Positions 1 to 28,052 of a stretch of DNA of 64,000 nucleotides are shown in pieces (the stretch's first letter is position 1; every line of letters begins with the position of its first letter). A program made the position numbers and the translations under genes. The DNA comes from Opitutia bacterium. Its GTDB lineage: Bacteria; Verrucomicrobiota; Verrucomicrobiia; Opitutales; JABJCN01. The stretch is from assembly GCA_018668635.1 (NCBI GenBank), contig JABJCN010000092.1, forward strand, positions 9,032-73,031, written 5' to 3'. The notes below the pieces were generated by a model. The model ran no database searches. It was not told the origin of the DNA and saw only the letters and a list, made by a program, of their open reading frames with translations.

Positions 1-3000
1 CCATTCAAGCTGGAAAGCGATATCATTAGTTTTGTTGCTCCAACCCGGGCAATTCTAGCCTCTGCACCCACGTTCCCTCCATTGCTTCCCGGTCAACGTA
101 TCTGGATTACAGGATCCACCAGTAATAATGGCATTTATACCGTCTCCCGCGATGTAGTGGCAACCGACCAGCAGATTATCATTGAAGAAGCCCTTTTGGA
201 TGAAACTGCCGGGAATCTTGTTACCATTGCCAGCGCTGGAGCCCAGCTTCCTGAAATGGATACGGATGCTGATGGATTAACTGATTTTTATGAGGAACAG
301 CTTGGGCTTGACCCTGGTCAGGATACTGATGGAGATGGTGTGCTCGATGACAGTGATGGTGACGGCAATCCCGATGGTTGGGACTCCGATGGTGACGGTC
401 TTCCTGATGGATGGGAGGTTCTCACCGGCCTTACCGTATTTGCCAATGATATCCATATGGCCAATAACAAGGTGTATTCAAGTTCCGCCATTGAACTCAC
501 TGGGTTGACTGATGTCTCATTTGACTCAGCGACCAGAAGTATTCGTAGTTCTCAAGGCTCACTTAGTGATACCAATCAACCGGCTTTCATCGCTGGCCAG
601 AAGGTTATCGTATCCGGTTCAGGTCTCAATAGCGGAACCTACACAATTGTTGCAGCAAACTCTATTCAGATAACGGTTGCCGAGGAGGTTCAAGATGAAA
701 AAGCCGGACGCGCGCTCTCTATTTCAAGCATTGGTGGCTCAAATCTATCTGTCTTTTCTGCAGGCACCACCTTGGAGGTCAAAGGCTTCACAAATATTGG
801 TAATTTCGGTATCGAGTCTTCAAGCGAAAACACCATTCAAGTCGTTGGAAATTTAGCCGATGAACCTACGGGTACTTTTGATCCCAATGATGAGTCCGCT
901 TATCGAGGCTGGATTACACTTTTTGCAAATGATACCGAGGGTGACTCTGATGGAGACCTTCTTTCCAATAAGGAGGAGTTTCTCGGTGCTGACGACAAGT
1001 CTTCTGGTTACAACGATTATCTGATCCCGGATCGCCTGTTCGATGGCGACTGGACACACCCCGTATTTAATGATACTGATGGAGACACCATTGATGATGG
1101 CTGGGAGATTCGATATGGTCTCGATCCAAACCAAAGCAATGGTCTTCTTGGAAGTGACATTGGTTTTCGCGACAATCGCGTCCGCTCCATTTCCAGCTTG
1201 GTCGTCAGTGGCCAGAATATTCGTTTTGATGGAGCTAGCAGTCGCATCCTATCATTGACTAATGAATTTATACTTCTTCGTCAGTGCCGTCAGGTTACAA
1301 TCATTGGCTCCGATAGCAACGACGGCTCATTTCCCATTATTGATATTGGAGTGGCTGGAGATTACATGGAAGTTGCGCCCGCTGCAAGCGGAGCGGTTAT
1401 TGTGGATGAAAAAGAGGGCCGACCTATCATGGTACATGGAGACCTTGAGATCCTGAGTAATGATATAAGCTTTAATGGGAATACCATAAGCTCTTCTCCA
1501 ACTACCGTTACAGGTAATGACATCTTTTTCACTGCAGCAGGTGAAATCCGTAACCTCGGGGGACAGTCTATTATGGGGGATGACATATCTTTCTCCGGGA
1601 CCACAATTCGTAGTCATAATGGGCACTTTTCTAGTGGAACGGATGACATATCCTTTGATGCGGCAACATCTGAAATTCGATCGCAGGTGGGCATCCTTAA
1701 TGGATATGCTGTGGGTTATCCCATCCTGGTGGCTGGTTCTGCGAATAACAATGGTTTGTTCATCGTGCAGTCTGTGCCTGTTCCGGGGTTCACCGTGGTT
1801 GTTAATGGCCCCCTCCAGGATGAAGGAGCCCAAAATGGCGGAAATAATCCTCAGCCCAAGGTCATTACCATTACCGCCATCGGGGGCACAGACCTTTCGA
1901 GTTTTATCTCCGGCTATCAAGTACAGGTTTTCGGATCTCTCTTTAATGATGGCATATATACCGTGACTGGAACACCCACTTTCCCCACGAATACGTTGGA
2001 CGTTGGCCAGCTACTTTTCACTGAGAGCAATGGAGCGTTTGTTGACATTTCTTATGCCGATACTTCCAGCTTTTCGAACTTCCGTGCCGGTCAGTCGATT
2101 ACTGTTACTGGTTCCGTTACCAATAATGGCACCTATACGATAGGCAACGCCTTACCCTCGGCGAACCTGATACAACTTGCTGCCACTGGCCCTGCCATTG
2201 TTGCCGAACCAGCCAATCCATTTACTGCAGTCACCCTGACTGCGCAAGGCGTCACAGACTTTTCCCGCTTTTCCCGGGGGGCACAAATTCAAGTTAATGG
2301 CACTTCCTTAAACGATGGCATTTACAATATTTCAAACGATATCGCACCGACTGCCAGCCAGATCCAAGTTGTTGAGCCTCTAACGCTTGAGGCTTCCGGT
2401 CCTGATCTTGAAATCTTTCAGCTTGGGCCTTCTTCCCGTCTGGATGCCTTTAATGATAATGAAAATGTTCTTATCAATGGCTCCTTAGGCAATGATGGCA
2501 CATTTATCATTGATACTAATGGTGTGAGCCCATCCACACTATTTGCTTTACCACCAAAATTATTTGCCTCGGAAGCAGCAGGTTCTCAAATTACAATATC
2601 CAAGGATCTCGATAGTGATGGTCTCCCTGACGTTGTTGAGTATCATTATAATTCCAACCCCAATCTTCGGGATACCGATGCTGATGGTGACACGGACATG
2701 GATGAAACTGGTGGATTCTTTGGTGGCAGTGATCCAACCGACCCTGATTCCGTCCTGCGATCCATTAATGGCTTGGTCAGATATAGTGGCATCGAGACGG
2801 GCAACATCTACATCCAGGTCGATGAGGCGAACCGCCCTTTTGAAGAAAACGACACCGGTGATACCATTCCCTCGGATCTTTATTTCACCAACAAAGACCG
2901 CACAATTCATTCTTCTACCGGAAAATTACCTTACCTTACCGTTGGACGACAAATCCTGATTTCTGGTACAAATGATGGGGATGGTGATGGGGTGGGGGAC

Positions 3001-6000
3001 AACGATGGTGTCTTTACGATTTCCAAGATTATTGCCTCAAAATATGCCATTGAGGTTGACGAGGAGCTTGTTGATGAGGGGACAATTGATGAAGATGGAG
3101 ACGGGGTTCCCGATGGGGTCTCTGTCTCAGCCACCGTACTTGGATATGACCCCATCCTTGTACCGCTTTCGCTGGGAGAGAGGGCCTACTCCATCAACGG
3201 GCTTGCCTCCGATCACTTGATCACGATTACCGCTTTCCTGGATGCAAATGGTAATGGTGGTCTTGATGAGTTTGCCGATCCCAATGGCCAATACAATAGC
3301 GGCAATCCCGTTGAGGTCGGTAAATCCGGTCGCTTTAATCTAAACCTTGACTTGGAACAGACGAGTTTGGCCATCGACAGTGTCACCACGGAGGAGATTG
3401 ATGGGGGGTATTACCACACCGTAATCTGGAATAGTGTCCCGGCGAAGCAATATCGTGTCCTTTATTCAACCTCCACCCCTGCCGGGCCATATGGCACCTA
3501 TGTCCCGGCTGCGAATGGCCTCCCGGTTGTCATCACAGGTCGTGATGCCCCCGTGGTGAACCCCGGGGACGATCCGCCAAAGACATCCCTTGTGCATTTC
3601 ACGGTGGAATCCCCTGTCTGGTATCGTGTGGAAATGGTTAATGCCTTTGGGGAGGGTGTTCCTGAGACTGATACAGATGGCGACGGCCTCACAGACTATC
3701 ACGAGGGGCAACTGAAACTCGACCCCGAAAACCCTGACGTTGATGAGGATGGCATGCCGGATGGCTGGGAGGTCTTGACCGGGCTCACAGCTTACGGCAA
3801 CGACCTGACCTTGGATGGAGACACCGGCAAGATTCTTTCCATTGCAGGTCTCATCACGGAATCAACCACTATTGGTTTCGATTTGGCCTCCAGGAAAATT
3901 AGTTTCAACAATGGCATGCCGGCTTTTATCGTTGGCCAGCAAATCACTGTAACAGGCTCCAAGGTTAATGATGGTACTTACACAATTTCAGAAGTCGCTA
4001 CAGATTCCACCTTCATTGTCGTGAAGGAAAGTCTAAACACGGAAACTGCTGGTGCTACAGTCACTGTTGCAAGCTTTGGAGGGACTGACCTCTCTGTATT
4101 TCAGGATGGAGCCATTTTGGTGATCAAGGGAACCACTGCGCAATTGTACGACGGAGTTTATAAGGTGATTGGTGCATCAATGACCCATGAGGCACAATTA
4201 TCAACAGTCGCCGGAGGCTTACCTTCCTTCCAGAACGGAAATGGTCATCCTGCTGAGCCCGGTATCTGGCTGACCCTTTACGCAACAGATTCCGATGCCA
4301 ATCCGGATGGTGATGGATGGGAAGATGTGGACGCATCAGGGAATCCAATTTGGCATCAGTATACAAATATTGAAGAATACCTTGGCGCGGACCAGACTCT
4401 CTCTATTTTCCGTAAGGAGCTTCTCCCAACCCGTATTTTCGACGGTGACTGGACGCACCCCAATAGTGTCGACACAGATATGGATGACATTGATGATGGG
4501 TGGGAGCGTCGATACGGATTGGACCCCAGTTCCCTCAACGGGACATTCGGTTCAGACCTCTCCTTTAAAGGCTCGCAGGTACGTTCAGTTGAAAGCATCT
4601 CTATTTCGGGTGAGAACATCAGTTTTGACGCGGCCACGCGCCGCATAAATTCTCTTTCATCATCCTTTCTTGCCTTCTCCAACTCGCAGTGGATCACGAT
4701 TACGGGCTCCGGGTTCAATGATGGGGTTTATGAGATTGAGTCAGTGTCCCAGTTTGGTGAGTTCATCACAGTTACTCCAGCCCATACACTTATAGAAGAA
4801 GTAAAGGGGGCAGATATATACATTCGCGCTGATCGGGAAAAAACAGGAACTGATATCAGCTTTAATGGTAATACAATTCGTGCTTCACGGACAACCGCCA
4901 GCGGTAGCGACATCCATTTTGATGATACCGGCTTTATCCGAAGTTTGGCTAACCAGAATGTTCAAGGCACTGACTTGGTCTTCGCACTAAACGAAGTCAA
5001 ATCTCACTTTGGACTAACGACTGGGTTCATTGTGAATGATATCAGTTTTGATGCAGCTTCACAGCAGATCAGTTCTCTAGCTGGTATTTTTCCGGATTTC
5101 GTTGTTGGGCAGCAGATTTTTGTCAATGGCTCCAATAGCAATGATGGTTTTTATACCCTTGCAGGTATTCCTGTTCAGGGCTCGATCTTACAGGTCAACG
5201 AGGCGCTAATTGACGAGGCTCGTCAAAATGTTGCCGGAGGGGGAGGGCCTGCTCCGCCTAAGATTATAGCAGTTGCCAGTGTAGGCGGCACGGATCTTTC
5301 TGGATTTCCCGGCGGGTTCCAAGTTCAGATTATGGGTTCTACTTTCAATGATGGTAATTTTACCCTGATTGCCCCTTCTTCCCAAAACCTATTACAGTTC
5401 GCTACTGCCATGCTCAATGAGCCTGCAGGAGCCAATACTGGGATTTCAGTATTAAACAGCACCAACCTGTCCGGGTTTGAGCTTGGTCAGCAGATTATTA
5501 TTACCGGCTCGACCCTGAATGATGGCACCTATCAAGTTTCCAATGCTGTGGCGCCAACTGCAGGTGCCATAGCGATTCAATTTGATCCACTGAACCCCTT
5601 GCAACTGCAAAATGAACCACCGTTGGTTACCCGTGCGCCCACAGTTGCCGCTGCAACTAATACCAATCTCTCCATGTTCACAAGGGGTGGCACGCTTGTG
5701 GTATCAGGTACGGCTTTCAATGATGGCACCTATCACATAAATCCCTTTATTGACCCAACTGCTGACACCATACAGGTCCAGGAAACCTTCATCAATGAGC
5801 CAATGGGCCCATCCACAACCATTTTGCAGACTGGTGCCACTGACCTATCCGGGTTTTTAGATAATACCACCATACTTGTTTCAGGTTCTTTTCTCAATAA
5901 TGGAGTCTACACAATTGCCAAGGATGGGGTTTCGCAGCATGCACTCACCTTTGCACCTTCCGGAATCTTTGCGGGATTTCTCCGTGAACCGGCTGCAGCA

Positions 6001-9000
6001 GACATTTCCATATCCCGGGACTCCGACAACGATGGTCTGCCCGACGTACTCGAATTCAACTACAAGACAAACCCATCCGAGCCTGACTCAGATGGTGATG
6101 GCGGCACCGATATTGCCGAGGTAAGTGGTCATTTTGGAGGCAGTGACCCCACTGATTCCACTTCTGTATTAAGTTCCATTGTTGGCACGATCATCTACGA
6201 AACCAATGAGAACGGCATCTTTTACGTCAGCCTCACGCCTGTGGCCGAGGGAATCAATGATCTCATGTTCAATAGTGCTGACCGCACCATTTCCTCTGCT
6301 TCAGGCCGCCTGCCATCTCTTATGGCCGGGGACATTCTTGAGGTTACAGGGACGGCATCCAATAATGGTCCTTTCACCGTTCTGGAAGTTGTGGCTCCTC
6401 ACACAACATTAAAGGTGATCGAGTCAATCTTGGATGAGTCTCCAGCTGATACCACAGTTATGGGACCACCCCTGCTTGTCTCCCTCCCGCCAAACCAGCG
6501 TAGTTTTGCCATCACAAATCTGCCTTCCGATGTCCATGTTCTTCTCGAGGCGTTCCTTGACTCAAACGGAAACGCTGAGCGCGATGATTTTATCGACCCA
6601 TCCGTTACCTACAATGGGGGCAAACCTCTCTTGGTTGGTCCTGGTGGTCGCTATAACATCGTCTTGGACCTTTCCCTTACTCCCCTGCGGATTCACCCAG
6701 ATGAAGTCGATGTAAAGGGGGTGGTCACAAAGGAAGATGAAATTACCGGCGGGTACCACCACACCATAACTTGGAAAAGTGTGCCGGGTAAGATTTATCA
6801 GGTCCGTTATTCGACAGCAACTCCGGCAGGTCCCTTTTCTCATTATGTGACTGCTCGGACAGGTTTGGCTGAGCAAGTCATCGGTAAGGCTGGAGGCGAA
6901 ACCACAAGCCTCATCCATTTTTCCACCCACCGCGATGTGTTTTACCGCATTGAACAACTGAATGCAGATGGTACTTTAACTCAAGAAGCGGACTCTGATG
7001 GTGATGGCCTGACAGATTACTACGAAGAAGCCCTTTTACTGGATCCTTTCACGCAGGATGTTGACCTTGATGGAATGCCAGATGGTTGGGAAGTTCTGAC
7101 TAAAATAACTACTCATGCAAGAGATATTCGGTTCAATGGCAGTACAATTACGTCTGTTTACAGCCTAACCTCGGCAAACAAGTCCGACATCTCTTTTGCA
7201 GGTAATATTATTTCAGCAACCTCCACCGAATTCCCCGAATTTCTCGCCGGTCATCAACTATTAATCACTGGTTCAGGCAAGAACGACGGTACCTATATTC
7301 TTGAGTCTGTTTCTGACGACCGGAAGACCCTGACCTTGTCGGGCACACTTGAGCAGGAAGTTGCCGGGGCTACGGTTACTATTTCCAGTGTCGGTGGAAC
7401 CAACCTTTCCATTTACCCGGCGGGAATTATTCTGAACGTCAAGGGCTCCACCAATACGCTCAATGATGGAATCTTTGAGGTCAAGGTCTCATCTGCAAAT
7501 CAATTAAATATGGTCAACGCCACTAATGGTACAGATCACGTTTTCATTTTAGAAGATCAAGATCCTGAGGCGCCCCACTATATTACCCTTTTTGCTTCTG
7601 ATGCTGACATTGACGCAGATATCGATGGATTATCCAACCTTGAGGAGTATCTTGGTGCGGACATCGAGGGGTCAACCTTCGATCCAGGGTTGCTTGCGGC
7701 CCGTGTCTTTGATGGTGATTACACCAACGCCACCGAGTTGGATACTGATGCAGACACGATGGATGATGGCTGGGAACGCAAGTATGGACTAAACCCGAAC
7801 GCGCTCAATGGTGTCTCGGGCACAGACCTCGGCTTTCGCGGACTCCAGATAAAGTCTATCAGCAGTATTCCAGTTTCTGGTCGTGACTTTACCTTTAACA
7901 GCGCGACAAATCGCATCACTGCTCTTTCAACCTCTCTCAGTAGCCTTCAACACGCACGCCAGTTAACTATTTTGGGCTCTGGCACAAATGATGGAACCTA
8001 TACGGTACTCTCTGTTGACACTGCAGGTGCCTTTATTGATATTCACCCCTCAACCCCAATTGCCATTAACCAGAAGGAGGGTAACTATGTGACCATACTT
8101 GGTGACAGGGAAATTCTTGGTAATGATATCTCATTGGATAGTTTTTCTATTCGGTCCACTCCCACTCAAGTTACAGGGAAGGATATTCATTTTGATTCTG
8201 CTGGGTTTATACGGTCCCTACTCGGTGTATTTGTTGAGGGACAGGATATCGGTTTTGTCGGCAACCAGATCAGTTCTCACTTTGGCCTGACCACAGGTGC
8301 GGTTGATGATGATATTTCTTTTGACTCTGCCACCAGCGAGATTCGCTCGGCTGGAGGTAACCTGCCTAATTTTGTCAACGGGTTTCAGATTCAGGTAGCC
8401 GGTTCCAACTTCAATAACGGCACCTTCACGGTTGTATCAACGATTACCTCTGGCTTTACTATTCAGGTTGCTGAGGCTCTTTTTGATGAGCCAGCCACTA
8501 ATAACCTTCTTCCCGGAGCAGCCAAAACCGTTACGATTGACTCCATTGGTGGCACTGATTTTTCATCAATTCCAAGCGGGTTTGAAATTTTTATATCAGG
8601 AAGTGGCGTTAATGATGGCGTCCAGACCGCTGCCATTTCCACTAGTAATATCCTTACGGTACTCAGTGGATTTATTTCCGAGGCAGCCGGTGCAAATGTC
8701 AGAATTGAGATTTCTCAACCTACAGATTTTAGTAATTTCCGAATTGGGCAGGAGATAGCAATTTCAGACAGTCGGCGTAATGATGGTGATTACATAATCG
8801 GTTCAGTTTCGCCAAATATGCTCAAAATTCAGTTTAATCCCACAATTCCTTCGCCTCTTTTCAATGACCCGGCAAATGTCTTGACTGAAGCTTCAGTCAC
8901 CGCCGTTGTCTTTAGTGACCTTTCCACATTCCAGAAAGGAGAATTCTTACAACTCAACGGTTCCACTGATAATAGTGGAGTTCTCCGCGTAAGCCCATTT

Positions 9001-16968: not shown

Positions 16969-17009
16969 GGCAGTTACAAACCGCGTTAATCTAGTATCTG
17001 GTTTTTTTA

Positions 17010-20000
17010 ATGAAACTTCCCTGCAAACTTCTGTTCCTTAGTCTTTTTACCTTGGTTACCTCCGTCCTTCATGGGCAACTTAACACCGGCAATATTACGG
17101 GTTTCGGTTGGGGGCAAGGCACTTACAGGATAGGAACGACCGTCCCCATCAACCTGCTGTCCATCACAGGCCCAATGGATGTCTTGTACTATGACATAAC
17201 TGTCAGAGGCTTCGATATCTATGGTGATGAAGTTGGAGACGGTTTTAATGGCGCTGGTGATTTTGGCTACATTATCGATTCTGGCTATACTCAATCCCTT
17301 GCCGGACCTGCCCCTATGACTCAGCCTGAAACAGGAACAATGGGTCCCTGGTTTTGGACCATACCTAATGAGGGGAGGTTACACAGTCCAGCACCAGCAG
17401 GATATTTTTTAAACTTCAATTTTTATTCCGAAAACCCCGCTATAGACCCCAACGCTATTTTGCTTCGTCCAATGGGGGTTGACGGGGTCTTTGTTGATGT
17501 CGAGGCCGACCTCTATGTCACCGGTTTGGATTTTCCAGCGGGAAATTATGTTGGTGGGGATTTCATTACCTTGAAGGTTTCATTATCCAATGGATTTCCC
17601 CCTCCGAGCTTGATCCAAGGGATGGCTGACCCGTTCCCTAACGTTCTTCGGGAAACACGCCCTCTCTTCACATCCTTCGATATCGATTTCAGGCTCTCTA
17701 TTGATCCGGCCTATGATACTGAAGTAAGAATTAATTCCGGTGTGGATAATAGCGATGATTTTGATCTACACACAGTAACTGTAGTGGGGGATGGTAAAAA
17801 CGGCCAGTCTTTCAGGGACAGTTGGCTTGATCCTGCGGAAGTTGTAACTATTACCACAGATGCCCTCCTGCCCAAGAACTATTCGGGTATTTTTTTCCTT
17901 GGCACGGAAATTGACTCAGGGGATAGCCCGGGTGTTCGTGACCTGACCGAGGCCAACAATATCCTGATGAGCTCTGCCACTGCGCGAATTCACATTCGGC
18001 CAACCAATTCACCTAGTACGCATCCGGTCAGTGAACGTACTGACGGGAACGGTCAACAGGTTGCCTCTGCCAATGAATACAGTGATGAACCTTCTGTCAG
18101 CGGGGATGGTGCGCGCATCGCCTTTGTCTCTCGTGCCAGCAATTTATTAACTACAGGTTCAGATAATAACAATCTTGCTGATGTGTTCATTCGTAATCGA
18201 GACACAGGTACTATACAATTAGCGAGTATGAGCTCCAGCGGAGTGCAGGCAAATCGTGACTCCAGCGACCCGGATATTAGTGTGGATGGACGATTTGTTA
18301 CATTTTCATCATTGGCTTCCAATCTGGTTGATGGAGATGTCGGTGGCTTTTCAGATATTTTTCTCCATGATATTATTAGTGGCGAAACCACCCGTATCAC
18401 AAAACGTATTGAGACGCCAACAGGTAGCGACATCACCTATACACTTGAAGCCAATGGATCCTCATTCACGCCCTCAATTTCCGAGGATGGTCGGTTTATT
18501 GCCTTTCAGTCCTACGCAACAAATCTTGATCATGATTTTGATGGCAAGTTTCCAAAAGGGGGAAGCCAAGTAAGTTATATTTATGTTCATGATCGCGGGG
18601 TTGATGGTGATCTTAACCGTTTTGACAGGGTGGACAATGTCCGCACCTACCTTGTATCAACTTCAACCAACGGTTCTATCGCTGACAGTAACAGCTATGC
18701 TCCCGATATAAGTTTTGATGCGAAGTGGATTGGCTTTGGGTCAATTGCACAGAACTTGCAACACTCTCTTGATGAGCCTTCCAAGTTTCAGCAAATCTAT
18801 CGGCGCCGTTTATTTGATGACTTTGCGTTGAAATCAAATACTGGCCTACCGAAAGGAGTTTACGGGAAGTCTCCCTCGGATGCTGAAATCCGTGATTCAC
18901 TTGAACTACTAAGCTTGAGTGCTTCTGGCGATCCTGGAAACAGCGATAGTTATGATGCCTCGGTCAACGGTGATGGCAGTGAGATTGCCTTTGTTTCCGA
19001 GGCGGACAATCTTGATTTTAGGATGGTTGATTCAAATGGTGTACCTGATATTTTCGTGCGCTCCATTCGCGATGGGGAACAACCTCAAACAGTCCGTGTT
19101 AATATTTCTTCAGGTGGCAATGAGGCTATAGATGTTGAGTTAGAGGACAGTCTCAACGCCATTAATGTCGCTGCTGGTAATCTTGATCCAACAATTGATC
19201 GCTCAGGACGATTCATTGCATTTCGCTCTCATGCTGATAACATCACGCACCTTTCCCCACTGAAAAATGGCTTCTCTGATGTTTTTCTGCACGACCGTGA
19301 TTTTGATGGAAATGATATTTTTGACGAGGTTGCTCTATCCGGTGTCAAGACCGAGGTCATCAGCGTAAACCGCTTCGGTCTCGAAACGCGTGGCTTGTTA
19401 AATAGGCCTTCCTCCGCATCCAGTCGCAATCCATCCATTAGTGCCGATAGTCGCTTTGTCGCATTTTCCACAGATTCCGAAAATACGGGCGGTTTACGTT
19501 TCAGCCGTTCCAATATGTACCCTCTGGATAGTAATTTCTACCGTGATATCTTTCTTTATGATCAAAACATAAATGTTCCCACTACAATTCCTGAATTATA
19601 CCCACCCAGCGTGGTCATTACAGAACCCAATAATGGGGATACCTTTTTTACTGGTACCACAATATTTGTTAATGCTTTTGCTTCAGATCCTCTTGGTACA
19701 TCAGCAGCCACAGCCGGTATCACGAAAGTTGATTTTTTCGTGAATGGGGAAATCGTTGCCGTGGATGATGCGGAGCCTTATTCAACCACATATACATTTG
19801 ATACACCTGGCACCTATAATATCAGAGCGAGGGCAACCGATCTGGATGGCTACGAGACAACATCAGCAAGCATCATTGTCACGGCTGATATCAGCACGAT
19901 AACCCTCCCCGAAATAGAGCTTCTGTCTCCACGTGACGGCTTGGATATTTCAGAGGGGTCCCCAATATTCCTTAAGGCAAAAATGATAGGTGCAATTGAT

Positions 20001-23000
20001 CCTTCATGGGCCGTTTCTGTAATTTTTAAAATGGATGGGCAGACAATCGGAACCGGAGTTCAGGACCCGAATGACCCAAGCATATTTGATCTACCTGGAG
20101 GATACTCGTTGGCGCCGCCAGGTAGCCACATCTTCAATGCAGAAGTAACTTATACCCTTCCTGCGATAGGTCCTGGTGGACCAGGTATGGTTGGTTCCAT
20201 GGTTTCTTCAGGTGTGAGTGTCATCGTCATGCCCAGTAATGGATTGAACCCGCCTCAAATTCAATGGTTGTTTCCTCCAAGCGGTATGACCCTGACTTCC
20301 GCCTCCAAAATACGCCTCCTTACCAATGCAAGTGATCCTGATGGTGATTTGGAAAGTGTGCAGTTTTACATTAATAACATCACCTACGGGAACAAAGTAT
20401 TACGGGTTCCTTCAATAAGTCCTGAAAAGTATCCATTTGGTGTTGAATGGTCCCCAGGTTCACCAGGTGTTTACACTTTGCAGGCGATTGCTTGGGATAA
20501 CGTACGAAATGCATCTGTGTCCCCCATGGTACAGGTGGTTGTAACGAGTGGTGTTGATCCGCCTGTGGTGGAAATGATTGCTCCTTTTACCCCACCCGAA
20601 TTTGCAGTACAAATTAATACCGCCGGTCAACTGGAATCCATCGAAACCATTCCATTCAGAGAAGGCTCCGGTTTTGATCCAAATGGAGAAATCGAAGTTT
20701 TCATAACCGGTCTTCGTCACCACGCAATCGCAGAGGTTGACTCCTTTCAGAATGGCGAAATTCGGGGAATCAATTTAATCGACGGAGGAAACGGATATAC
20801 CAGGACCCCCAAGGTGAATATTGTAGGTTCTGGAAAGGGTGCCCTTGCCTTTGCCCGGGTTCATAACCAGAAAGTATCTGAATTCCTAGTTCGTGATGCG
20901 GGGTATGGTTTTTCTCAGGAGGAAGGGGGAGCCAAGGTAATAATTGAGGGTGGACATTCAAATCCTCTTGCCACGGCAACCCTAGATAAAAATGGAGGAA
21001 TTGCTGAAGTCAATATTGCAACAAAAGGATCAGGTTTTCTTGATGGAGCCATTACTACCTACAGTGTCATTAATCCGGGCATTGAATATCCATTAGACCC
21101 TTCATTGATAACAGTTCTCATTGAAGGAGTTGGCACCAACAAAGCAGAGGCCGAGGTAGAGGTAAACTACAACGGATCAATTACGGAAATTACGCCGGTT
21201 AAATACGGAGCTGGCTATGACAAACCGTATCCATATCCTGATGATAGCGCCAGCTTGTCATTCAGCTTAAATGGAAATTACATTAATTCCTCGAATGCCA
21301 GTGACCCTAAGTGGTTACAGTTTATAACGGAAATTGCTGAAAAGAATACCCTTAATAATGCTCTCTTGTACGATACACTTGTTGTTAATGGGGCGCAGGG
21401 TAATGATTCTAAATATACGATTTTAAGTGTTTCGGCGGCAGGGATTGAAGTTTATCCCAATCTTGAAACAGAGGGTTTATTTACAAATGTTGACATCGTT
21501 GCCTACCCTGCGCCTCCAGTTATTGAAATAGTTGATAGCACCGGTCATGGTACTGGCGCTAGGGTTGTTGCATTTGTCGCAAGTCCTTCGGTTGTTGTCC
21601 GGGATGTCCGGGCTTTCAATCTTTCTCAAGCTTCTGGTGTGGTAAATTTTGGAGAACGGATTAAAATTTTTGCGGAGGGTTCAGATGTCGGTCAGGATGG
21701 ATCTCCTGGTTCTAGAGGTAAAATTATACGCACTGAATATTATATTGACGGACAAATGATATTTCAGCCAACCGCTGGTGCAAATGCCATCTTATCTAAC
21801 ATTGCCACCAATGCAAATGGTGATATTTTTCCTCTTTCTGGCTCTGGTGGAATATCAACTGATAACCAAAATGCGCCGATTTATTGGAGTCCCAACATCA
21901 ATGATGAGGGTATCCATGAGATGTTTGCTCTAACTTATGATGATGACCATAATGTTACGACGAGTTCACCGGTATTGATAAGTATCGTACCCCCCAGTGG
22001 CACCGGGACAGGTAATGGCACCGGGACAGGTAGTGGCAGTAGTGGGGATGTCATTCCCAAACTTTGGATCACTTCTCCAATTCAAGGAGCCACTTTTAAT
22101 TTCCTATCGGATTTAACCCCGGGTGGTGCAGGTTCCATTGATGGCGATACCAACATTACCACCGAGCCTATTGCAATTGAGGTCCGAGCTGAGCCTGGAG
22201 ACTCAGAGGGCAACGGTTCAATCGCGCAAGTAAGGCTCTTCGCCAATTCTACAATTGTAGGTGCTGATGGTAGCTTTCCCTATCAATTTACCTTCACCCC
22301 GAATTCTCTTGGTCAGATTAAATTTATTGCTGAGGCAACTGATGTCTACGGTAATACTGCACTATCTGACTCACGAACCATCACTGTTACAGATGGTATC
22401 TATCCGAATGGTTATGAGGGGTTTCAGGGCGCCTTGCCGGTAGTTGAGATTACATCGCCACTGGATACCATGGAGTTTGTCATGGGAACGACAGGCCGTG
22501 CGGTCACATTATCTGCCAAGGCCGCGCCTAACCCACAGACGCCATCCATGTTAATTACACAGGTCGAGTTCTTTGTTAACGATGACTTTGTCGGTGCAGA
22601 TAATGCCTTCCCCTATCGTGTCCCATTCGTTTTTCCCGGGGAAGGTCATTACGAAATACGTGCTGTTGCAAGAGATAGCCGGATGATGAGAAACTCCGAC
22701 ATTATCACCGTTCGTGTGATAGAAAACCCACTGCTTACTGCAACTGCTGGCTTACAACCTTGGGAGGTGGGCTCAACTGGTAGCCCAACCAGTGACGCCA
22801 ATCGGGATTTTATTGTATCTGTCTACCGAGATTTAACTATTGAAAATCCAGATGCCAATTCTCTATCCACTTTTCAGTCCAAACTAGACAAGGGATACAT
22901 GACCCGCGAGGACTTTGTTGCAGAAGTTCTCGACAAACAGCGGAGCCTTGCAGTGCAGTACTCTTCTGCAACCCAATATCTCCTTACCGGGATTTGGCCG

Positions 23001-24230
23001 GACCGTGATGGAGTCGTTTTTAATACTTTTCTCTACGGTCAACGTTCGGTGGATGGTCTGACTCAGGAAGCAACCTTAATTCCTGATTCTATACCCGTTG
23101 CACCGCCGAATCAACAAGGTGGCAACAATAACAATAACAACAACAACAACGGCCTAGGGCAGGGCAATGGCCCACCAGAGTGGCGGCTTAGTTCACCGGG
23201 CTTGCGTTTTACGGATCCTTCAGAATCCCCTACAGGTGGTATTGTTGCTGGGCCACCAGCAGCCGGATTTATAGGTCCAACAGGTCTTGCTCGTACCTGG
23301 GGAGTTGTTGTTCCTGTAACAGGCAGGGTGGGAATGCCTAGACCGGGACTTGATACGGTAACCCGTTATTATTACTTTCTGGAGAACCAGTTATCAATTT
23401 TCACTTATAATTATTGGGACTTTGACTTGGTTGCCTCTGACATGTTTCGAAGAAAATATTTTGGGGTGGCTCCCGATGGCCCTCAGGTTTTTCGGATTCA
23501 GTCTTTGATGGAGACTCCTTACCTTAAGCAAAAAGGAAAGGATGATTATGATAGCTTGGGTCAGCTGTACCTTAACGAGGGCCTTTCTGACAGAGTTCGT
23601 ATTGATGCAGTACAGGCATTGGTTGCTGACAACGAAATCGCTACTTACAGAGACCTTACCTATACCAAAACCTTGGAAATAACTTTTCCACCCAACAACA
23701 CCATGGCTGATACCATGAAAGTACATGCTTTGTGGGTTTCCATGGCTAGAAATAATCCCAATCCAGATGAAATGTCTTCATTATTGAGGATGGGTTCAAT
23801 AAAAGAGCAAATCCAATATATCCTCTCATTATCTGAATATAGGGCAAGGTTTCCGGGTAAAGTTCTTTCAGATGCCTATTTCAATCATTGGGCCTCCGGT
23901 GCAAAAGATTCGGGAGGCGACTGGTACTCTCTAAAAAAATTTGGCTTCTTTCTGGCCCGGCAGCTGACGACGGGCTGGATATACCATCAGGGCGAAACCC
24001 CTGCGTCGGATGGCCTCGGGTGGATTTTTATTCCCTACGAACAGCCGGCCTCTTCCATCTGGTTGCATAGACCTGACCTAGGTTGGTGCTGGACAACTAT
24101 TTCGGGAGAGTCTCCTGTATTTCCATATCTTTACAGTCAGAATTATGGATGGTTGTATTTTGAGGAAACTGAAGCAGGTAGCCCGTGGTTCTATTCTTTT
24201 GGCAGCGAGGCTTGGATGCAGTTGCCTTAA
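17010..24230 (+). CDS. Secreted 2406-aa multidomain protein: CARDB-like region, PD40/TolB-like beta-propeller, Ig-like (Big_7-type) domains, GxG[YF] repeats, DUF4214-like segment and Trp-rich C-terminal repeats
   Basis: The ATG at 17010 is followed by the signal-peptide-like MKLPCKLLFLSLFTLVTSVLHGQ. Seven blade motifs are visible: SVSGDGARIAFVS, ISVDGRFVTFSS, SISEDGRFIAFQS, DISFDAKWIGFGS, SVNGDGSEIAFVS, TIDRSGRFIAFRS and SISADSRFVAFST. Ig-like motifs include VDFFVNGEIVAVDDAEPYSTTYTFDTPGTYNIRARATD and VEFFVNDDFVGADNAFPYRVPF. Confidence 0.9.
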   Translation: MKLPCKLLFLSLFTLVTSVLHGQLNTGNITGFGWGQGTYRIGTTVPINLLSITGPMDVLYYDITVRGFDIYGDEVGDGFNGAGDFGYIIDSGYTQSLAGPAPMTQPETGTMGPWFWTIPNEGRLHSPAPAGYFLNFNFYSENPAIDPNAILLRPMGVDGVFVDVEADLYVTGLDFPAGNYVGGDFITLKVSLSNGFPPPSLIQGMADPFPNVLRETRPLFTSFDIDFRLSIDPAYDTEVRINSGVDNSDDFDLHTVTVVGDGKNGQSFRDSWLDPAEVVTITTDALLPKNYSGIFFLGTEIDSGDSPGVRDLTEANNILMSSATARIHIRPTNSPSTHPVSERTDGNGQQVASANEYSDEPSVSGDGARIAFVSRASNLLTTGSDNNNLADVFIRNRDTGTIQLASMSSSGVQANRDSSDPDISVDGRFVTFSSLASNLVDGDVGGFSDIFLHDIISGETTRITKRIETPTGSDITYTLEANGSSFTPSISEDGRFIAFQSYATNLDHDFDGKFPKGGSQVSYIYVHDRGVDGDLNRFDRVDNVRTYLVSTSTNGSIADSNSYAPDISFDAKWIGFGSIAQNLQHSLDEPSKFQQIYRRRLFDDFALKSNTGLPKGVYGKSPSDAEIRDSLELLSLSASGDPGNSDSYDASVNGDGSEIAFVSEADNLDFRMVDSNGVPDIFVRSIRDGEQPQTVRVNISSGGNEAIDVELEDSLNAINVAAGNLDPTIDRSGRFIAFRSHADNITHLSPLKNGFSDVFLHDRDFDGNDIFDEVALSGVKTEVISVNRFGLETRGLLNRPSSASSRNPSISADSRFVAFSTDSENTGGLRFSRSNMYPLDSNFYRDIFLYDQNINVPTTIPELYPPSVVITEPNNGDTFFTGTTIFVNAFASDPLGTSAATAGITKVDFFVNGEIVAVDDAEPYSTTYTFDTPGTYNIRARATDLDGYETTSASIIVTADISTITLPEIELLSPRDGLDISEGSPIFLKAKMIGAIDPSWAVSVIFKMDGQTIGTGVQDPNDPSIFDLPGGYSLAPPGSHIFNAEVTYTLPAIGPGGPGMVGSMVSSGVSVIVMPSNGLNPPQIQWLFPPSGMTLTSASKIRLLTNASDPDGDLESVQFYINNITYGNKVLRVPSISPEKYPFGVEWSPGSPGVYTLQAIAWDNVRNASVSPMVQVVVTSGVDPPVVEMIAPFTPPEFAVQINTAGQLESIETIPFREGSGFDPNGEIEVFITGLRHHAIAEVDSFQNGEIRGINLIDGGNGYTRTPKVNIVGSGKGALAFARVHNQKVSEFLVRDAGYGFSQEEGGAKVIIEGGHSNPLATATLDKNGGIAEVNIATKGSGFLDGAITTYSVINPGIEYPLDPSLITVLIEGVGTNKAEAEVEVNYNGSITEITPVKYGAGYDKPYPYPDDSASLSFSLNGNYINSSNASDPKWLQFITEIAEKNTLNNALLYDTLVVNGAQGNDSKYTILSVSAAGIEVYPNLETEGLFTNVDIVAYPAPPVIEIVDSTGHGTGARVVAFVASPSVVVRDVRAFNLSQASGVVNFGERIKIFAEGSDVGQDGSPGSRGKIIRTEYYIDGQMIFQPTAGANAILSNIATNANGDIFPLSGSGGISTDNQNAPIYWSPNINDEGIHEMFALTYDDDHNVTTSSPVLISIVPPSGTGTGNGTGTGSGSSGDVIPKLWITSPIQGATFNFLSDLTPGGAGSIDGDTNITTEPIAIEVRAEPGDSEGNGSIAQVRLFANSTIVGADGSFPYQFTFTPNSLGQIKFIAEATDVYGNTALSDSRTITVTDGIYPNGYEGFQGALPVVEITSPLDTMEFVMGTTGRAVTLSAKAAPNPQTPSMLITQVEFFVNDDFVGADNAFPYRVPFVFPGEGHYEIRAVARDSRMMRNSDIITVRVIENPLLTATAGLQPWEVGSTGSPTSDANRDFIVSVYRDLTIENPDANSLSTFQSKLDKGYMTREDFVAEVLDKQRSLAVQYSSATQYLLTGIWPDRDGVVFNTFLYGQRSVDGLTQEATLIPDSIPVAPPNQQGGNNNNNNNNNGLGQGNGPPEWRLSSPGLRFTDPSESPTGGIVAGPPAAGFIGPTGLARTWGVVVPVTGRVGMPRPGLDTVTRYYYFLENQLSIFTYNYWDFDLVASDMFRRKYFGVAPDGPQVFRIQSLMETPYLKQKGKDDYDSLGQLYLNEGLSDRVRIDAVQALVADNEIATYRDLTYTKTLEITFPPNNTMADTMKVHALWVSMARNNPNPDEMSSLLRMGSIKEQIQYILSLSEYRARFPGKVLSDAYFNHWASGAKDSGGDWYSLKKFGFFLARQLTTGWIYHQGETPASDGLGWIFIPYEQPASSIWLHRPDLGWCWTTISGESPVFPYLYSQNYGWLYFEETEAGSPWFYSFGSEAWMQLP

Positions 24231-26841: not shown

Positions 26842-27522
26842 ATGAATGCCCCTGTTTTAAAACTAGTTGGAACAACCAACTGCGGACTCGTGGATACTAC
26901 TGAAAATACTAATACTGAGGTATTGCCAAACCGGAAACCGCTGAACGCGGATTCGACGGATTCACAACTCATTGAGCTTGTGAATGAAGGCCATACCAAT
27001 GCTTTCAGTGCCTTGGTGCTCCGTTATCGTGACCGCGTTTTTTCAGTTGTTTACAACATGACCTCCAACCGCGAAGACGCCAATGATGTAACTCAGGATG
27101 TGTTCGTTAAGGCATTTCAAAACATCCATAGGTTTCAACAGAAGTCCACCTTCTTTACCTGGTTATATCGGATTGCGGTCAATACGACCATCAGCTTCAT
27201 CAAGAAGAATCGTAACAGGCAGTTTTTTAGCCTGGAAAATTTCGAGGAAGAGGGCATAAGCGGCAAACTTGCGGAGATTTTATCATCCAGAAAGCATTCT
27301 CGACGAGAGCTTATGCTGCACGAATTACAGGAAAAATTGAACGAAGCGCTTCAGAAATTGTCTGTTAAGCATAGGACTACCGTAGTTCTTTTTGAAATTG
27401 AAGGCCTTAGCCACAAGGATATCGGTGAAATTTTAAATTGCTCTGAGGGGACAGTAAGGTCCCGACTGCACTACGCCAAGAATGAGTTACAGAACTACAT
27501 GAAGGAATACCTTCGCCTTTGA
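26842..27522 (+). CDS. ECF-type RNA polymerase sigma-70 family factor
   Basis: Region 2 reads FSALVLRYRDRVFSVVYNMTSNREDANDVTQDVFVKAFQNIHRF...FFTWLYRIAVNTTISFIKK. Region 4 reads TVVLFEIEGLSHKDIGEILNCSEGTVRSRLHYAKNEL. Confidence 0.9.
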   Translation: MNAPVLKLVGTTNCGLVDTTENTNTEVLPNRKPLNADSTDSQLIELVNEGHTNAFSALVLRYRDRVFSVVYNMTSNREDANDVTQDVFVKAFQNIHRFQQKSTFFTWLYRIAVNTTISFIKKNRNRQFFSLENFEEEGISGKLAEILSSRKHSRRELMLHELQEKLNEALQKLSVKHRTTVVLFEIEGLSHKDIGEILNCSEGTVRSRLHYAKNELQNYMKEYLRL

Positions 27523-28052
27523 TAGATACACAAATGAGAAATAATAATAATCAGGAGGATCAGCTCACGCTGAATGATCTTTTCGAGCTCAAAAAGCAGG
27601 AAAAGCCTGTGTCTGAGTTTTGGGATGAATTTGATCAGCAACTGCATCAAAAGATGATGTCATCGCTTGTTGACCGTCGCACTTCATTTAGTCGTGCGTG
27701 GGAGTTTGCAGTTCGAAAGCTTCTACCCATTTCCCTTGCAGGGAGTGCAGTGGCAGCGCTTTTGATTTCCATGACCCCACTTTGGCACTCTGATGAGTCC
27801 GTTGGCGTCAATAAGGAAATTGCCAAGGTTATTGTCTCCCCGAAGACCGCTATTCCCAAGGTAGGACTTGCCAGTACCATTGATTTTCATCAGGCAGACC
27901 TTCCTGCAACGGAAGTTGTCTCTATGGAATCCAAGGAATTTTCCGGGATGGAAATCACGGTGAATTCTGCGGTTAATGAGATTTATGAAACCAATCCCCT
28001 CATTGCTTCTATCGTAGTAAATACTGGGAGTTTGGTGGAGCAGATTTTCTAG
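27519..28052 (+). CDS. Putative single-pass membrane anti-sigma factor
   Basis: The start (TTG 27519, or ATG 27534) overlaps or abuts the sigma gene stop. One hydrophobic helix (LLPISLAGSAVAALLISMTPLW) lies mid-protein. There is no HxxxCxxC zinc anti-sigma motif. The call rests on position only. Confidence 0.5.
   Translation: MIDTQMRNNNNQEDQLTLNDLFELKKQEKPVSEFWDEFDQQLHQKMMSSLVDRRTSFSRAWEFAVRKLLPISLAGSAVAALLISMTPLWHSDESVGVNKEIAKVIVSPKTAIPKVGLASTIDFHQADLPATEVVSMESKEFSGMEITVNSAVNEIYETNPLIASIVVNTGSLVEQIF

What the first reader, a model, noticed from the sequence alone, without database searches (positions are those of the whole stretch)
1..24230. Two giant genes in tandem, 41 nt apart with no convincing terminator: candidate two-protein surface system
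The stop of the giant repeat gene (16968) and the ATG of the 2406-aa gene (17010) are separated by 41 nt. That gap contains only a weak 5-bp AT-rich stem (aaacc...ggttt). The two genes are on the same strand and together occupy 24.2 kb. The arrangement ends with convergent proS. One protein is a Ca-binding repeat stalk with a possible CBM. The other combines a propeller, Ig-like domains and a Trp-rich C-terminal repeat that could act as a wall or membrane anchor. Co-transcription and a shared function such as adhesion, matrix or S-layer-like coat formation, or particle capture are plausible. No dedicated secretion genes are visible downstream, and the upstream side is outside the window.
Basis: inference. 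Interest (0 to 1): 0.65.

Follow-up and report, generated by a model that had tools for sequence, protein, structure and literature searches.

The report
Giant protease and partner behind secretin
The two huge neighbouring genes are real and stay together in related marine bacteria. They are the tail end of a seven-gene cluster that starts with a pilus-type outer-membrane channel related to the Akkermansia Amuc_1098-1102 cluster, so they are probably surface proteins exported by or working with that channel.

Summary
An ORF ends at 16968, an ATG ORF runs 17010-24230, and the gap is 41 nt with no terminator.

Gene 1 is cut by the window edge. Conspecific Opitutae MAG contigs extend it to 8,306 aa (about 890 kDa). 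The missing 5' part encodes a hydrophobic N-terminus and two intact subtilase (S8) domains.

Upstream, in the same species, lie a PilM-like gene, an Amuc_1100-like gene, two small membrane or exported proteins, and a TPR-secretin of the Amuc_1098 type.

The full order (secretin cluster, giant, gene 2 homolog) recurs on one contig of a relative at 47-75% identity. The pair recurs in a more distant relative at 44%.

Gene 2 homologs sit 29-81 nt after a secretin in five further loci, three of them Opitutaceae-type loci including Actomonas aquatica. So gene 2 belongs to a family that closes pilMNOPQ-like operons across class Opitutae. Gene 1 is an insertion in a marine sublineage.

Gene 1 is built from about 1,100-aa super-repeats. 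Each holds TSP3-type Asp motifs, FN3-like domains and about 40 copies of an uncurated 60-aa beta module.

Export through the secretin is inferred, not shown.

The parts
1..16968 (+). Gene 1, 3' two-thirds only: codons 2652-8306 plus the stop of an 8,306-aa giant secreted subtilase/repeat protein. The start lies about 7.95 kb left of the window.
   Evidence: Frame open from position 1. P0123 aa 1975-3003 equals window aa 1-1029 at 99%. P0323 aa 678-2160 equals P0123 aa 1-1483 at 100%, and the start is at L014:9121.
1..3621 (+). Super-repeat unit (window aa 1-1207). Order: TSP3 motifs, short DIxF beta repeats, about 60-aa GSxxNDGxY modules, TSP3 motifs, a beta-sandwich, and an FN3-like domain ending in WYRVE.
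   Evidence: Self-comparison and the alignment of units, 35-44% identity to the first unit.
3622..6942 (+). Super-repeat unit (window aa 1208-2314).
6943..10425 (+). Super-repeat unit (window aa 2315-3475).
10426..15384 (+). Expanded, divergent super-repeat unit (window aa 3476-5128) with a unique insertion of about 400 aa.
   Evidence: The insertion has no Pfam match.
15385..16965 (+). C-terminal region of gene 1. It holds TSP3 motifs, a weakly DUF2141-like sandwich and a terminal domain of about 130 aa that is conserved in the L004 and L015 orthologs.
16969..17009 (+). 41-nt intergenic gap with no Shine-Dalgarno sequence, no terminator-like site and no promoter-like site. Orthologous gaps are 48 and 51 nt, and their sequence is not conserved.
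17010..24230 (+). Gene 2: 2,406-aa secreted protein of about 260 kDa, pI 4.4.
   Evidence: It matches P0001, 'hypothetical protein [Opitutae bacterium]'.
17010..17075 (+). Sec-type signal peptide (aa 1-22). The likely mature N-terminus, QLNTGN, is conserved in the orthologs.
   Evidence: Read from the sequence. No signal-peptide predictor was run.
17082..18044 (+). Family-specific N-terminal domain (aa 25-345). Its second half resembles the N-terminal region of the Opitutaceae homologs.
   Evidence: Alignment A1 and local BLAST. No Pfam hit.
18045..19589 (+). PD40-type beta-propeller region (aa 346-860).
   Evidence: PF07676 at 35.7 bits, cutoff 20.9. More than 500 PD40 homologs were found.
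19590..22709 (+). Array of Ig-like domains (Big_7, four scored stretches) with GGxGY-type repeats and a Gly/Thr-rich linker.
   Evidence: PF17957 at 120.6 bits. PDB 9kvu bacterial Ig domain, E 4.7e-11. Tandem repeat at 21998-22038.
22710..24227 (+). C-terminal region: a weakly DUF4214-like helical segment, a poly-Asn run (aa 2039-2047), and a Trp-rich beta domain (last 180 aa or so, 11 Trp).
   Evidence: DUF4214 at E 0.012, below cutoff. Conserved in P0002, P0095, P0073 and P0047. AF2 pLDDT 46, unusable.
24267..25790 (-). Convergent prolyl-tRNA synthetase gene. It marks the end of the locus.
26842..30636 (+). ECF sigma factor, putative anti-sigma, HtrA-like protease and fumarase C. The ECF sigma (58% identical), the start of the anti-sigma and fumarase C (50%) also lie downstream of the secretin/PD40 locus in Opitutaceae, so these are positional-orthology markers.

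Best explanation
Shown:
- The two genes are the last two genes of a conserved seven-gene envelope locus of marine Opitutae (Verrucomicrobiota).
- The gene order is: a small exported protein; a PilM-like cytoplasmic protein (Amuc_1101-type); an Amuc_1100-like protein with an N-terminal membrane helix; a second such protein; a TPR-secretin (Amuc_1098-type); gene 1; gene 2.
- Gene 1 is an 8,306-aa acidic protein. From the N-terminus it has a hydrophobic helix, a kexin-like S8 protease with a P-domain, a deseasin-like S8 protease with its own propeptide-like segment, five super-repeats of about 1,100-1,650 aa, and a C-terminal domain.
- Gene 2 runs: signal peptide, family-specific domain, PD40 propeller, Ig array, Trp-rich domain.
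- Gene 2 belongs to a family that follows a secretin gene in Opitutae generally.

Inferred:
- Both proteins enter the periplasm by the Sec pathway.
- They then reach or act at the cell surface through, or in complex with, the adjacent secretin machine.
- They form a long, calcium-stiffened, protease-bearing fibre together with a propeller/Ig partner. The fibre binds and digests proteinaceous particles or other cells.
- Gene 1 and gene 2 are read as one transcript that starts in the 772-nt non-coding region after the secretin gene.
For: Locus in the same species. L014 carries a 234-aa gene, a PilM-like gene (Amuc_1101_fam, E 1.8e-76), an Amuc_1100_fam gene (E 9.8e-15), a 362-aa gene and a secretin (Amuc_1098_fam, E 6.5e-99, plus TPR). 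After 772 nt comes the start of gene 1. Its overlap with the window goes through P0123 at 99-100% identity.

Whole order on one contig. L015 carries the cluster, the giant (63-75% identical) and, after 48 nt, a gene 2 ortholog (47% over 1,842 aa from residue 1). L011 has the same species-level arrangement.

Pair in a distant relative. L004 has both genes at 44% identity with different downstream genes.

Gene 2 family directly after a secretin:
- L005, 72 nt.
- L012, 57 nt.
- Actomonas aquatica L016, 29 nt.
- L017, 40 nt, and L018, 81 nt.
- All three Opitutaceae homologs checked showed this arrangement.

Positional orthology. The ECF sigma (58% identical), anti-sigma and fumC neighbours are shared with Opitutaceae loci.

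Proteases. S8 #1 is PF00082 at E 4.8e-44 with a P-domain, and D/H/N/S motifs are visible. S8 #2 scores E 1.7e-50, and its closest solved structure is deseasin MCP-01 (3vv3, E 1.8e-98).

Other support:
- The proteins are acidic, with pI 4.2 and 40 TSP3-type motifs in gene 1.
- In Omnitrophota, giant genes are generally preceded by T2SS/T4P-like loci (bioRxiv 10.1101/2023.11.21.568195).
- In Akkermansia, the Amuc_1098-1102 products are abundant envelope proteins and Amuc_1098 is an outer-membrane secretin (PMC4960237, PMC5332112).
Against: - There is no expression, localisation or secretion data of any kind.
- The NCBIfam scores are far below the equivalog cutoffs (332 against 750, 258 against 650, 55 against 180).
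- No pilin, assembly ATPase or platform gene is seen in the 9 kb upstream. A T2SSE/PilT-like ATPase lies 16 kb downstream, but nothing links it to this locus.
- An 890-kDa substrate is far larger than known T2SS cargo (own knowledge).
- The 772-nt gap separates the pair from the secretin operon, so co-regulation with it is not implied.
- The Opitutaceae secretins are a shorter PilQ type, and only their secretin domain aligns with the marine one (30%). The two cluster types may therefore not be strictly equivalent.
- The upstream side of L004 was not visible.
Confidence: 0.5

Rival explanations
1. Gene 2 is not cargo but a structural accessory of the pilus-like machine. It could be a secretin-associated or pilus-tip adhesin, functionally like PilY1 or TsaP. 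Gene 1 would then be a lineage-specific passenger inserted into the operon tail.
For: The gene 2 family is the conserved partner of the secretin in every lineage examined. Gene 1 is present only in the marine sublineage. The unit-level homologs of gene 1 that were found are fragments from related marine organisms. PilY1-type tip adhesins also contain a beta-propeller (own knowledge).
Against: The propeller is PD40-type, and no PilC/PilY1 family match appeared in the Pfam or NCBIfam scans. Size varies from 1,700 to 3,800 aa, and the C-terminal domains are swapped between lineages. That pattern is more typical of surface adhesins than of machine parts. No minor pilin genes are adjacent.
Confidence: 0.22
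2. The adjacency is conserved synteny without functional coupling. On this view the genes encode two independent giant adhesins or proteases. They would be exported by another route and transcribed from their own promoters.
For: A 772-nt non-coding gap lies before gene 1 and holds promoter-like matches, though no more than chance expects. Giant surface proteins are common in PVC bacteria. The module of gene 1 also occurs in 2,719 other proteins, some with cadherin or RTX contexts. The terminator scans are uninformative in this genome.
Against: The short 29-81-nt spacing after the secretin is kept across lineages whose secretins are only 30-38% identical. The gene 1 to gene 2 spacing of 41-51 nt is kept while the flanking genes change.
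Confidence: 0.22
3. The genes encode type 1 secretion (RTX-like) giant adhesins.
For: Both proteins are huge, acidic and repetitive, with calcium-binding-type motifs. One other protein that carries the 60-aa module has RTX repeats. An RND-type efflux set (AcrB, HlyD-like, OEP) lies at 49-55 kb.
Against: Both proteins have N-terminal hydrophobic signals. Neither gives a HemolysinCabind hit. No ABC/MFP pair is adjacent. The RND set lies 25 kb away on the other strand and is AcrB-type.
Confidence: 0.02
4. The giant ORF is a decaying pseudogene or an assembly chimera of repeats.
For: One NCBI MAG has a TAA at window 7963-7965. Long-read assemblies split the ortholog by frameshifts.
Against: The 16,968-nt frame is intact in the window. 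The MAG contig L001 differs from the window by a single nonsense SNP among 19 differences in 25.8 kb, and the two shorter contigs by 4-6 differences. Orthologs are collinear at 44-75% identity over thousands of residues. The super-repeats are only 35-47% identical to each other, so repeat collapse is unlikely.
Confidence: 0.03

Closest known systems
Akkermansia muciniphila Amuc_1098-Amuc_1102 'pili-like' cluster (PilQ-type secretin Amuc_1098, Amuc_1100, PilM/FtsA-like Amuc_1101)
   Same: The genes upstream of gene 1 give their best NCBIfam hits to Amuc_1101_fam, Amuc_1100_fam and Amuc_1098_fam. The secretin has TPR repeats, as reported for Amuc_1098. All but the PilM-like protein have N-terminal signals or helices, as reported for the Akkermansia cluster.
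   Different: Scores are well below the equivalog cutoffs. No match to Amuc_1099 or Amuc_1102 was found for the two small proteins. No giant downstream genes are reported for Akkermansia in the papers read. I could not inspect Amuc_1097.
pilMNOPQ operon (type IV pilus alignment subcomplex plus secretin)
   Same: Five genes occur in the order: cytoplasmic actin-like PilM, two single-helix membrane proteins, a small exported protein, a secretin. In Opitutaceae the sizes are canonical (about 350, 205, 190, 165-190 and 600-630 aa), with PilM, GspM/PilO-like and PilQ hits.
   Different: Matches fall below the curated cutoffs. The marine version has enlarged proteins, and its small exported protein comes first rather than fourth. 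A large PD40/Ig gene is appended. I know of no such appended gene in classical pilMNOPQ operons (own knowledge).
Giant genes of Omnitrophota next to T2SS/T4P-like loci (West-Roberts et al., bioRxiv 2023)
   Same: In both cases giant extracellular multidomain proteins of PVC bacteria are encoded directly downstream of a secretin-containing secretion or pilus locus. Attachment and degradation roles were proposed for them.
   Different: The Omnitrophota loci have more than 10 subunits, including gspD/E/F and pilin-like genes. Here only five genes are seen and no ATPase, platform or pilin gene. The domain content differs (S8 proteases, TSP3 motifs, the 60-aa module), and the giant comes paired with a PD40/Ig protein.
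Deseasin MCP-01 (PDB 3vv3) and kexin/furin-type subtilases
   Same: S8 #2 matches the deseasin MCP-01 catalytic domain at E 1.8e-98. S8 #1 has the DDG/HGT/GTSAS motifs and a P-domain, as proprotein convertases do.
   Different: Both domains are embedded in one 8,306-aa polypeptide. Each lies upstream of kilobases of repeats rather than next to PKD or PPC domains.
Bacterial TSP3-repeat surface proteins (Myxococcus MtsD, CglD)
   Same: They share thrombospondin type 3 D.D.DG..D calcium-binding-type motifs. The NCBIfam hits are weak: MtsD at E 9.5e-12 and CglD at E 7.5e-07.
   Different: The hits cover only the TSP3 segments, at 38-44 bits against cutoffs of 400-800. The architectures are unrelated.

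Membership tests
Peptidase S8 (subtilase) | PF00082 above the gathering score, with an Asp-His-Ser triad in D-H-S order | tested here: met
   S8 #1 scores 151 bits, with motifs VSIVDDG, GHGTSVAG and GGTSASAP. S8 #2 scores 172 bits, with motifs AVIDTGV, HGTHCAGT and GTSMACPH. Both lie in the part of gene 1 outside the window and were read from conspecific contigs.
Bacterial TSP3 repeat (PF18884) | Pfam score at or above 25 bits; D.D.DG..D..E motif | tested here: inconclusive
   Window halves score 17.7 and 21.9 bits, below the cutoff. The upstream piece P0123 scores 33.1 bits. The window part has 30 motif matches and the full protein 40.
PD40 / TolB-type beta-propeller | PF07676 above 20.9 bits | tested here: met
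   35.7 bits for gene 2 aa 346-860. The precomputed PF07676/PF26549 hits are present in the homologs.
Big_7 bacterial Ig-like domain | PF17957 above 24.1 bits | tested here: met
   120.6 bits in four stretches. PDB 9kvu, E 4.7e-11.
Amuc_1098-1102 pilus-like system (NCBIfam equivalogs) | Scores at or above the equivalog cutoffs for Amuc_1098_fam (750), Amuc_1101_fam (650) and Amuc_1100_fam (180); Amuc_1099 and Amuc_1102 members present | tested here: not met
   332, 258 and 55 bits. There are no hits for the 234-aa and 362-aa proteins. These are best hits and clearly homologous (E 1e-99 to 1e-14), but not equivalogs. File as a related system, not a member.
Type IV pilus pilMNOPQ | PilM (TIGR01175 at or above 133) and PilQ (TIGR02515 at or above 284); pilin, PilB and PilC encoded in the genome | tested here: not met
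   PilM scores 67 bits and PilQ 125 bits in L014. In Actomonas, PilQ scores 255 and PilM 33. Pilin, PilB and PilC could not be searched genome-wide. A PilT-like T2SSE ATPase is at window 40442-41596.
Type 1 secretion RTX adhesin | C-terminal RTX nonapeptide repeats, no N-terminal signal peptide, adjacent ABC/MFP genes | tested here: not met
   No HemolysinCabind hits. N-terminal hydrophobic signals are present. No adjacent ABC/MFP genes.
   No CBM family among the Pfam hits at E <= 0.01 for the whole proteins, or at E <= 1 for the unique insertion and the C-terminal region.
DUF4214 | PF13946 at or above 23.2 bits | tested here: not met
   16.2 bits, E 0.012, at gene 2 aa 1930-1971. This is a resemblance only.
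SH3-like / KOW-like small beta-barrel (for the 60-aa module) | Significant structural match to a solved barrel | tested here: inconclusive

The most novel reading that the evidence does not exclude
In class Opitutae, the pilMNOPQ-like / Amuc_1098-type secretin machine may be a dedicated display apparatus for very large single-polypeptide fibres rather than, or in addition to, a pilus assembly scaffold. Its conserved sixth gene would be the PD40/Ig protein. In marine lineages an 890-kDa protein would be tethered in the inner membrane by its N-terminal helix and threaded through the secretin. That would make a protease-armed 'fishing line' for marine particles. If so, the function of the much-studied Akkermansia Amuc_1100 cluster would need re-reading.
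Probability: 0.15. Interest if true: 0.85.

Novelty: new variant of a known kind. Interest (0 to 1): 0.55.

Why it matters
The Amuc_1098-1102 cluster is studied intensively for its effects on the host, yet its native function is unknown. These loci show that, across free-living relatives, homologous or analogous secretin clusters carry a large propeller/Ig protein as their last gene. In marine lineages they also carry a giant double-protease fibre. That gives a concrete, testable hypothesis for what the machine handles.

It also extends the pattern 'giant gene next to a secretin locus', reported for Omnitrophota, to abundant marine Verrucomicrobiota. There, cell-surface proteases similar to deseasin would bear on particulate organic nitrogen turnover.

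Finally, it flags an uncurated 60-aa repeat module found in about 2,700 protein clusters, many of them giants.

Tried and rejected
Collection scans that led nowhere:
- A genome-contig scan with the N-terminal piece of gene 1 found only TSP3 noise in archaeal MAGs. The source species is not among the GTDB representatives.
- Two metagenome-contig scans with gene 2 alignments found nothing. The second used a poly-Asn pattern.
- An exact look-up of the window's own gene 2 found no record. The window differs from P0001 at three positions.

Structure and fold:
- AlphaFold of the Trp-rich C-terminal domain gave pLDDT 46, and I did not search with it.
- Fold searches of the 60-aa module against the PDB and BFVD were not significant.

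Other negative results:
- Rfam found nothing in the locus or in the 772-nt upstream gap.
- Promoter and terminator scans did not exceed shuffled expectation.
- A literature search for Amuc_1096/1097 told nothing about the gene next to the Akkermansia secretin.
- A search for a paper linking the Amuc_1100 structure to PilO returned only false matches on 'pilot'.

Considered and rejected: a T1SS/RTX adhesin, a CBM-bearing glycan binder, a pseudogene or assembly chimera, and horizontal acquisition. For the last, the GC content of the two genes (44-51%) matches that of the rest of the window.
Full report
**1. Observation**

Frame 1 of the + strand has no stop codon from position 1 to the TAA at 16966-16968. 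An ATG ORF of 2,406 codons runs 17010-24230. The gap between them is 41 nt.

The gap contains no + strand terminator-like site and no promoter-like site. It does not fold better than shuffled sequence (z = +0.8). It has no Shine-Dalgarno sequence and only the weak aaacc...ggttt stem followed by a T run. proS converges at 24267-25790.

The same junction is present at 99.9% identity in contigs from an NCBI MAG, an ENA assembly and a JGI metagenome. The arrangement is therefore real.

Two caveats apply.
- No terminator-like site is found after gene 2 either. Absence of a terminator in the gap carries little weight here.
- Gene 1 has no start in the window. The TTG at 82 listed lies inside a frame that is already open from position 1.

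**2. The organism and the true size of gene 1**

Gene 2 matches P0001, 'hypothetical protein [Opitutae bacterium]', from marine MAGs.

The only strong database matches to the C-terminal half of gene 1 are three fragments of the same gene from conspecific MAGs.
- P0123, annotated as a partial S8 family serine peptidase, overlaps window residues 1-1029 at 99% identity. It adds 1,974 residues upstream.
- P0323 overlaps P0123 at 100% identity and adds a further 677 residues up to an ATG at L014:9121.

The composite gene is 8,306 aa, about 890 kDa, pI 4.2 and 9% Asp. Window position 1 is codon 2652.

The missing part encodes three features.
- An N-terminal hydrophobic helix followed by a charged KDKDxKE segment. 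This is conserved in the L015 ortholog and may be a signal anchor rather than a cleaved signal.
- A kexin-like subtilase (PF00082, E 4.8e-44) with a P-domain and visible D/H/N/S motifs.
- A second subtilase (E 1.7e-50), preceded by a propeptide-like segment (read from the sequence). Its closest solved relative is the deep-sea collagenolytic protease deseasin MCP-01 (3vv3, E 1.8e-98).

**3. Anatomy of gene 1 inside the window**

Self-comparison shows super-repeats of about 1,100-1,650 aa. Each ends in an FN3-like segment (TWxSVPGKxYRVxYS...WYRVE). The boundaries fall at window residues 1207, 2314, 3475 and 5128, and the units are 35-47% identical to each other.

Each unit holds, in order:
- TSP3-type Asp motifs;
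- short DIxF beta repeats;
- runs of a roughly 60-aa module (consensus LSxFxxGQxIxIxGSxxNDGxYTI...E..G);
- more TSP3 motifs;
- a weakly DUF2141-like sandwich;
- the FN3-like domain.

An HMM built from the gene finds 40 stretches matching the module in the window part, about 38 of them full-length copies. Pfam matches the module only faintly, as NifZ, below the cutoff.

A two-module AlphaFold model built from 17 internal copies reaches pLDDT 86 and is all-beta. Foldseek finds no significant match. The best weak hits are tandem KOW, Tudor or SH3-like barrels and single modules in uncharacterised phage proteins.

A profile of 33 copies matches 2,719 cluster representatives out of 1.84 billion (486 at E <= 1e-10). 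Many of these are 5,000-7,900 aa long. One of three tested has cadherin/Big_9 domains and one has RTX repeats. The module is therefore a widespread, uncurated building block of giant extracellular proteins.

Unit-level homologs of gene 1 are only short metagenomic fragments at 45-60% identity. No CBM was detected.

**4. Anatomy of gene 2**

From the N-terminus, gene 2 has:
- a Sec-type signal peptide, with a conserved QL(N/G)xGN start to the mature protein;
- a family-specific domain, aa 25-345;
- a PD40 propeller region, 35.7 bits;
- an Ig-like array with four Big_7 stretches, 120.6 bits;
- a weakly DUF4214-like helical segment, E 0.012, below the cutoff;
- a poly-Asn linker;
- a Trp-rich beta domain conserved in P0002, P0095, P0073 and P0047.

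The model of that last domain was too poor to use (pLDDT 46). Its role is unknown.

**5.

*The pair in other genomes.*
- In L004, a 113-kb ENA contig, an 8,477-aa gene ends 51 nt before a 3,051-aa gene. Both are 44% identical to gene 1 and gene 2, and the downstream genes differ (NamZ, carB).
- In L015, a 2.4-Mb contig, the order is: 227-aa gene, PilM-like, Amuc_1100-like, 379-aa gene, secretin, giant, a 48-nt gap, then a 2,821-aa gene. The giant is split by frameshifts into 6,873 + 286 + 811 aa and is 63-75% identical to gene 1. The 2,821-aa gene is 47% identical to gene 2 from its first residue.
- L011 shows the same cluster and the start of the giant (68% identical to P0123).

*The cluster in the window's own species.* L014 shows a 234-aa gene, then PilM-like (Amuc_1101_fam, E 1.8e-76), Amuc_1100_fam (E 9.8e-15), a 362-aa gene and a TPR-secretin (Amuc_1098_fam, E 6.5e-99). 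After 772 nt comes the start of gene 1.
- The PilM-like protein has no membrane helix.
- The Amuc_1100-like protein and the 362-aa protein each have one N-terminal helix.
- The 234-aa protein has a signal peptide.
- This is the pattern of a PilM/N/O/P/Q set (own knowledge).

*Gene 2 homologs directly after a secretin.*
- L005, 72 nt, with all five cluster genes 24-38% identical to those of L014.
- L012, 57 nt.
- Three Opitutaceae-type homologs from large genomes: Actomonas aquatica (29 nt), L017 (40 nt) and L018 (81 nt). Each follows four small genes and a PilQ-type secretin.

In the Opitutaceae loci the genes further downstream include an ECF sigma factor, an anti-sigma, fumarase C and YjbQ. 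The window has the same set at 26842-31083, and the ECF sigma is 58% identical. The loci are therefore positional orthologs.

The conclusion is that gene 2 belongs to a family that closes secretin operons across class Opitutae. Gene 1 sits between the secretin and that gene only in a marine sublineage.

**6. Mechanism**

Shown: the gene order and its conservation, the domain content, the N-terminal hydrophobic signals, the intact protease motifs, and the acidic repeat-rich composition.

Inferred:
- Both proteins cross the inner membrane by Sec. They need an outer-membrane route, and the adjacent secretin machine is the obvious candidate.
- Gene 1 forms a long fibre whose TSP3-type motifs bind calcium and which carries two proteases near its membrane-proximal end.
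- Gene 2 provides a propeller/Ig binding partner.
- The pair serves capture and proteolysis of particles or cells.
- The two genes share a transcript that starts in the 772-nt gap.

There is precedent. Omnitrophota giant genes are generally preceded by T2SS/T4P-like loci. The Akkermansia Amuc_1098-1102 products are abundant envelope proteins, and Amuc_1098 is an outer-membrane secretin. As a weak extra hint, several Planctomycetota proteins fuse PD40 propellers and S8 proteases in one chain.

Several points count against export through the secretin.
- There are no experimental data.
- The cargo size would be without precedent.
- No pilin, ATPase or platform gene lies in the 9 kb seen upstream.
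- The NCBIfam scores are below the equivalog cutoffs.

**7. Rivals**

- Gene 2 is an accessory or tip component of the machine rather than cargo (0.22).
- The synteny is conserved without functional coupling (0.22).
- T1SS/RTX adhesins (0.02).
- Pseudogene or chimera (0.03).

The last rival rests on a single nonsense SNP in one MAG (TTA to TAA at window 7963-7965) and on frameshifts in long-read assemblies. The intact frame in the window and the collinear orthologs argue against it.

**8. Comparison, novelty and scores**

The locus works like a secretin-linked giant-protein system of the kind reported for Omnitrophota. Its upstream genes are homologs, not equivalogs, of the Akkermansia pili-like cluster.

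I have not seen the following described:
- the regular presence of a PD40/Ig gene as the last gene of pilMNOPQ-like operons in Opitutae;
- the insertion of a double-subtilase giant between that gene and the secretin;
- the 60-aa module.

I rate it a new variant of a known kind, interest 0.55. The boldest reading the evidence allows is that the machine displays single-polypeptide fibres. I give that 0.15 probability and 0.85 interest if true.

Noticed in passing
window 7963-7965 (L001:954-956): NCBI MAG GCA_018663085.1 has TAA where the window has TTA. Its annotation therefore splits the giant gene into products of 1,715 and 2,998 aa. This is either a segregating nonsense allele or a consensus error.
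   Followed up: partly
L011:9804-12453; L015:6683-9794 and 30591-33966: Pilon-polished long-read ENA assemblies split the giant ortholog (784+7,103 aa; 6,873+286+811 aa) and the secretin (290+753 aa). tblastn shows frame changes, so these are probably homopolymer frameshift errors rather than real gene fission.
   Followed up: partly
L014:8349-9120: A 772-nt non-coding stretch lies between the secretin stop and the gene 1 start. It has no Rfam match, and its promoter-like matches do not exceed chance. It is a candidate regulatory region for the giant pair.
   Followed up: partly
window 26842-29123: An ECF sigma factor, a putative anti-sigma and an HtrA-like protease (Trypsin_2+PDZ) lie 2.6 kb downstream. 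The sigma/anti-sigma pair is a conserved neighbour of the secretin/PD40 locus in Opitutaceae (58% identical). It is a possible envelope-stress regulator of the locus.
   Followed up: partly
window 40442-41596: A T2SSE-family ATPase of 384 aa (PilT/PilU size) lies 16 kb downstream. It shows that the genome encodes some type IV pilus or T2SS motor component.
   Followed up: no
window 34403-35179, 35574-35646, 35865-36758: A flagellin gene, a tRNA gene and a 297-aa leucine-rich-repeat protein lie in a row.
   Followed up: no
window 58875-60335: dnaA is present, with ligA next to it at 60829-62904 on the opposite strand. Cumulative GC skew turns near 36-38 kb. The giant locus therefore lies within a few tens of kb of the probable replication origin.
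   Followed up: no
window 23124-23150: A run of nine Asn codons in gene 2 is conserved as ten Asn in the 44%-identical L004 ortholog. It lies between the helical segment and the Trp-rich domain and looks like a maintained low-complexity linker.
   Followed up: no
window 21998-22038: An 18-nt tandem repeat (2.3 copies) encodes the GTGNGTGTGSGS linker of gene 2.
   Followed up: no
window 1-16965 (40 HMM matches, e.g. 2251-2439): The 60-aa GSxxNDGxY module is not in Pfam, yet it matches 2,719 cluster representatives. Many are 5,000-7,900 aa long. It is a candidate new domain family of giant extracellular proteins.
   Followed up: partly
one search hits P0049, P0051, P0068, P0079, P0084, P0089, P0093: Planctomycetota proteins combine FG-GAP/VCBS, PD40 propeller and S8 protease domains in a single chain. 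The same two activities are split between gene 1 and gene 2 here.
   Followed up: no
window 49119-54946 (- strand): An RND efflux set (AcrB-type pump, HlyD-like adaptor, outer-membrane factor). It is unrelated to the giant genes.
   Followed up: no
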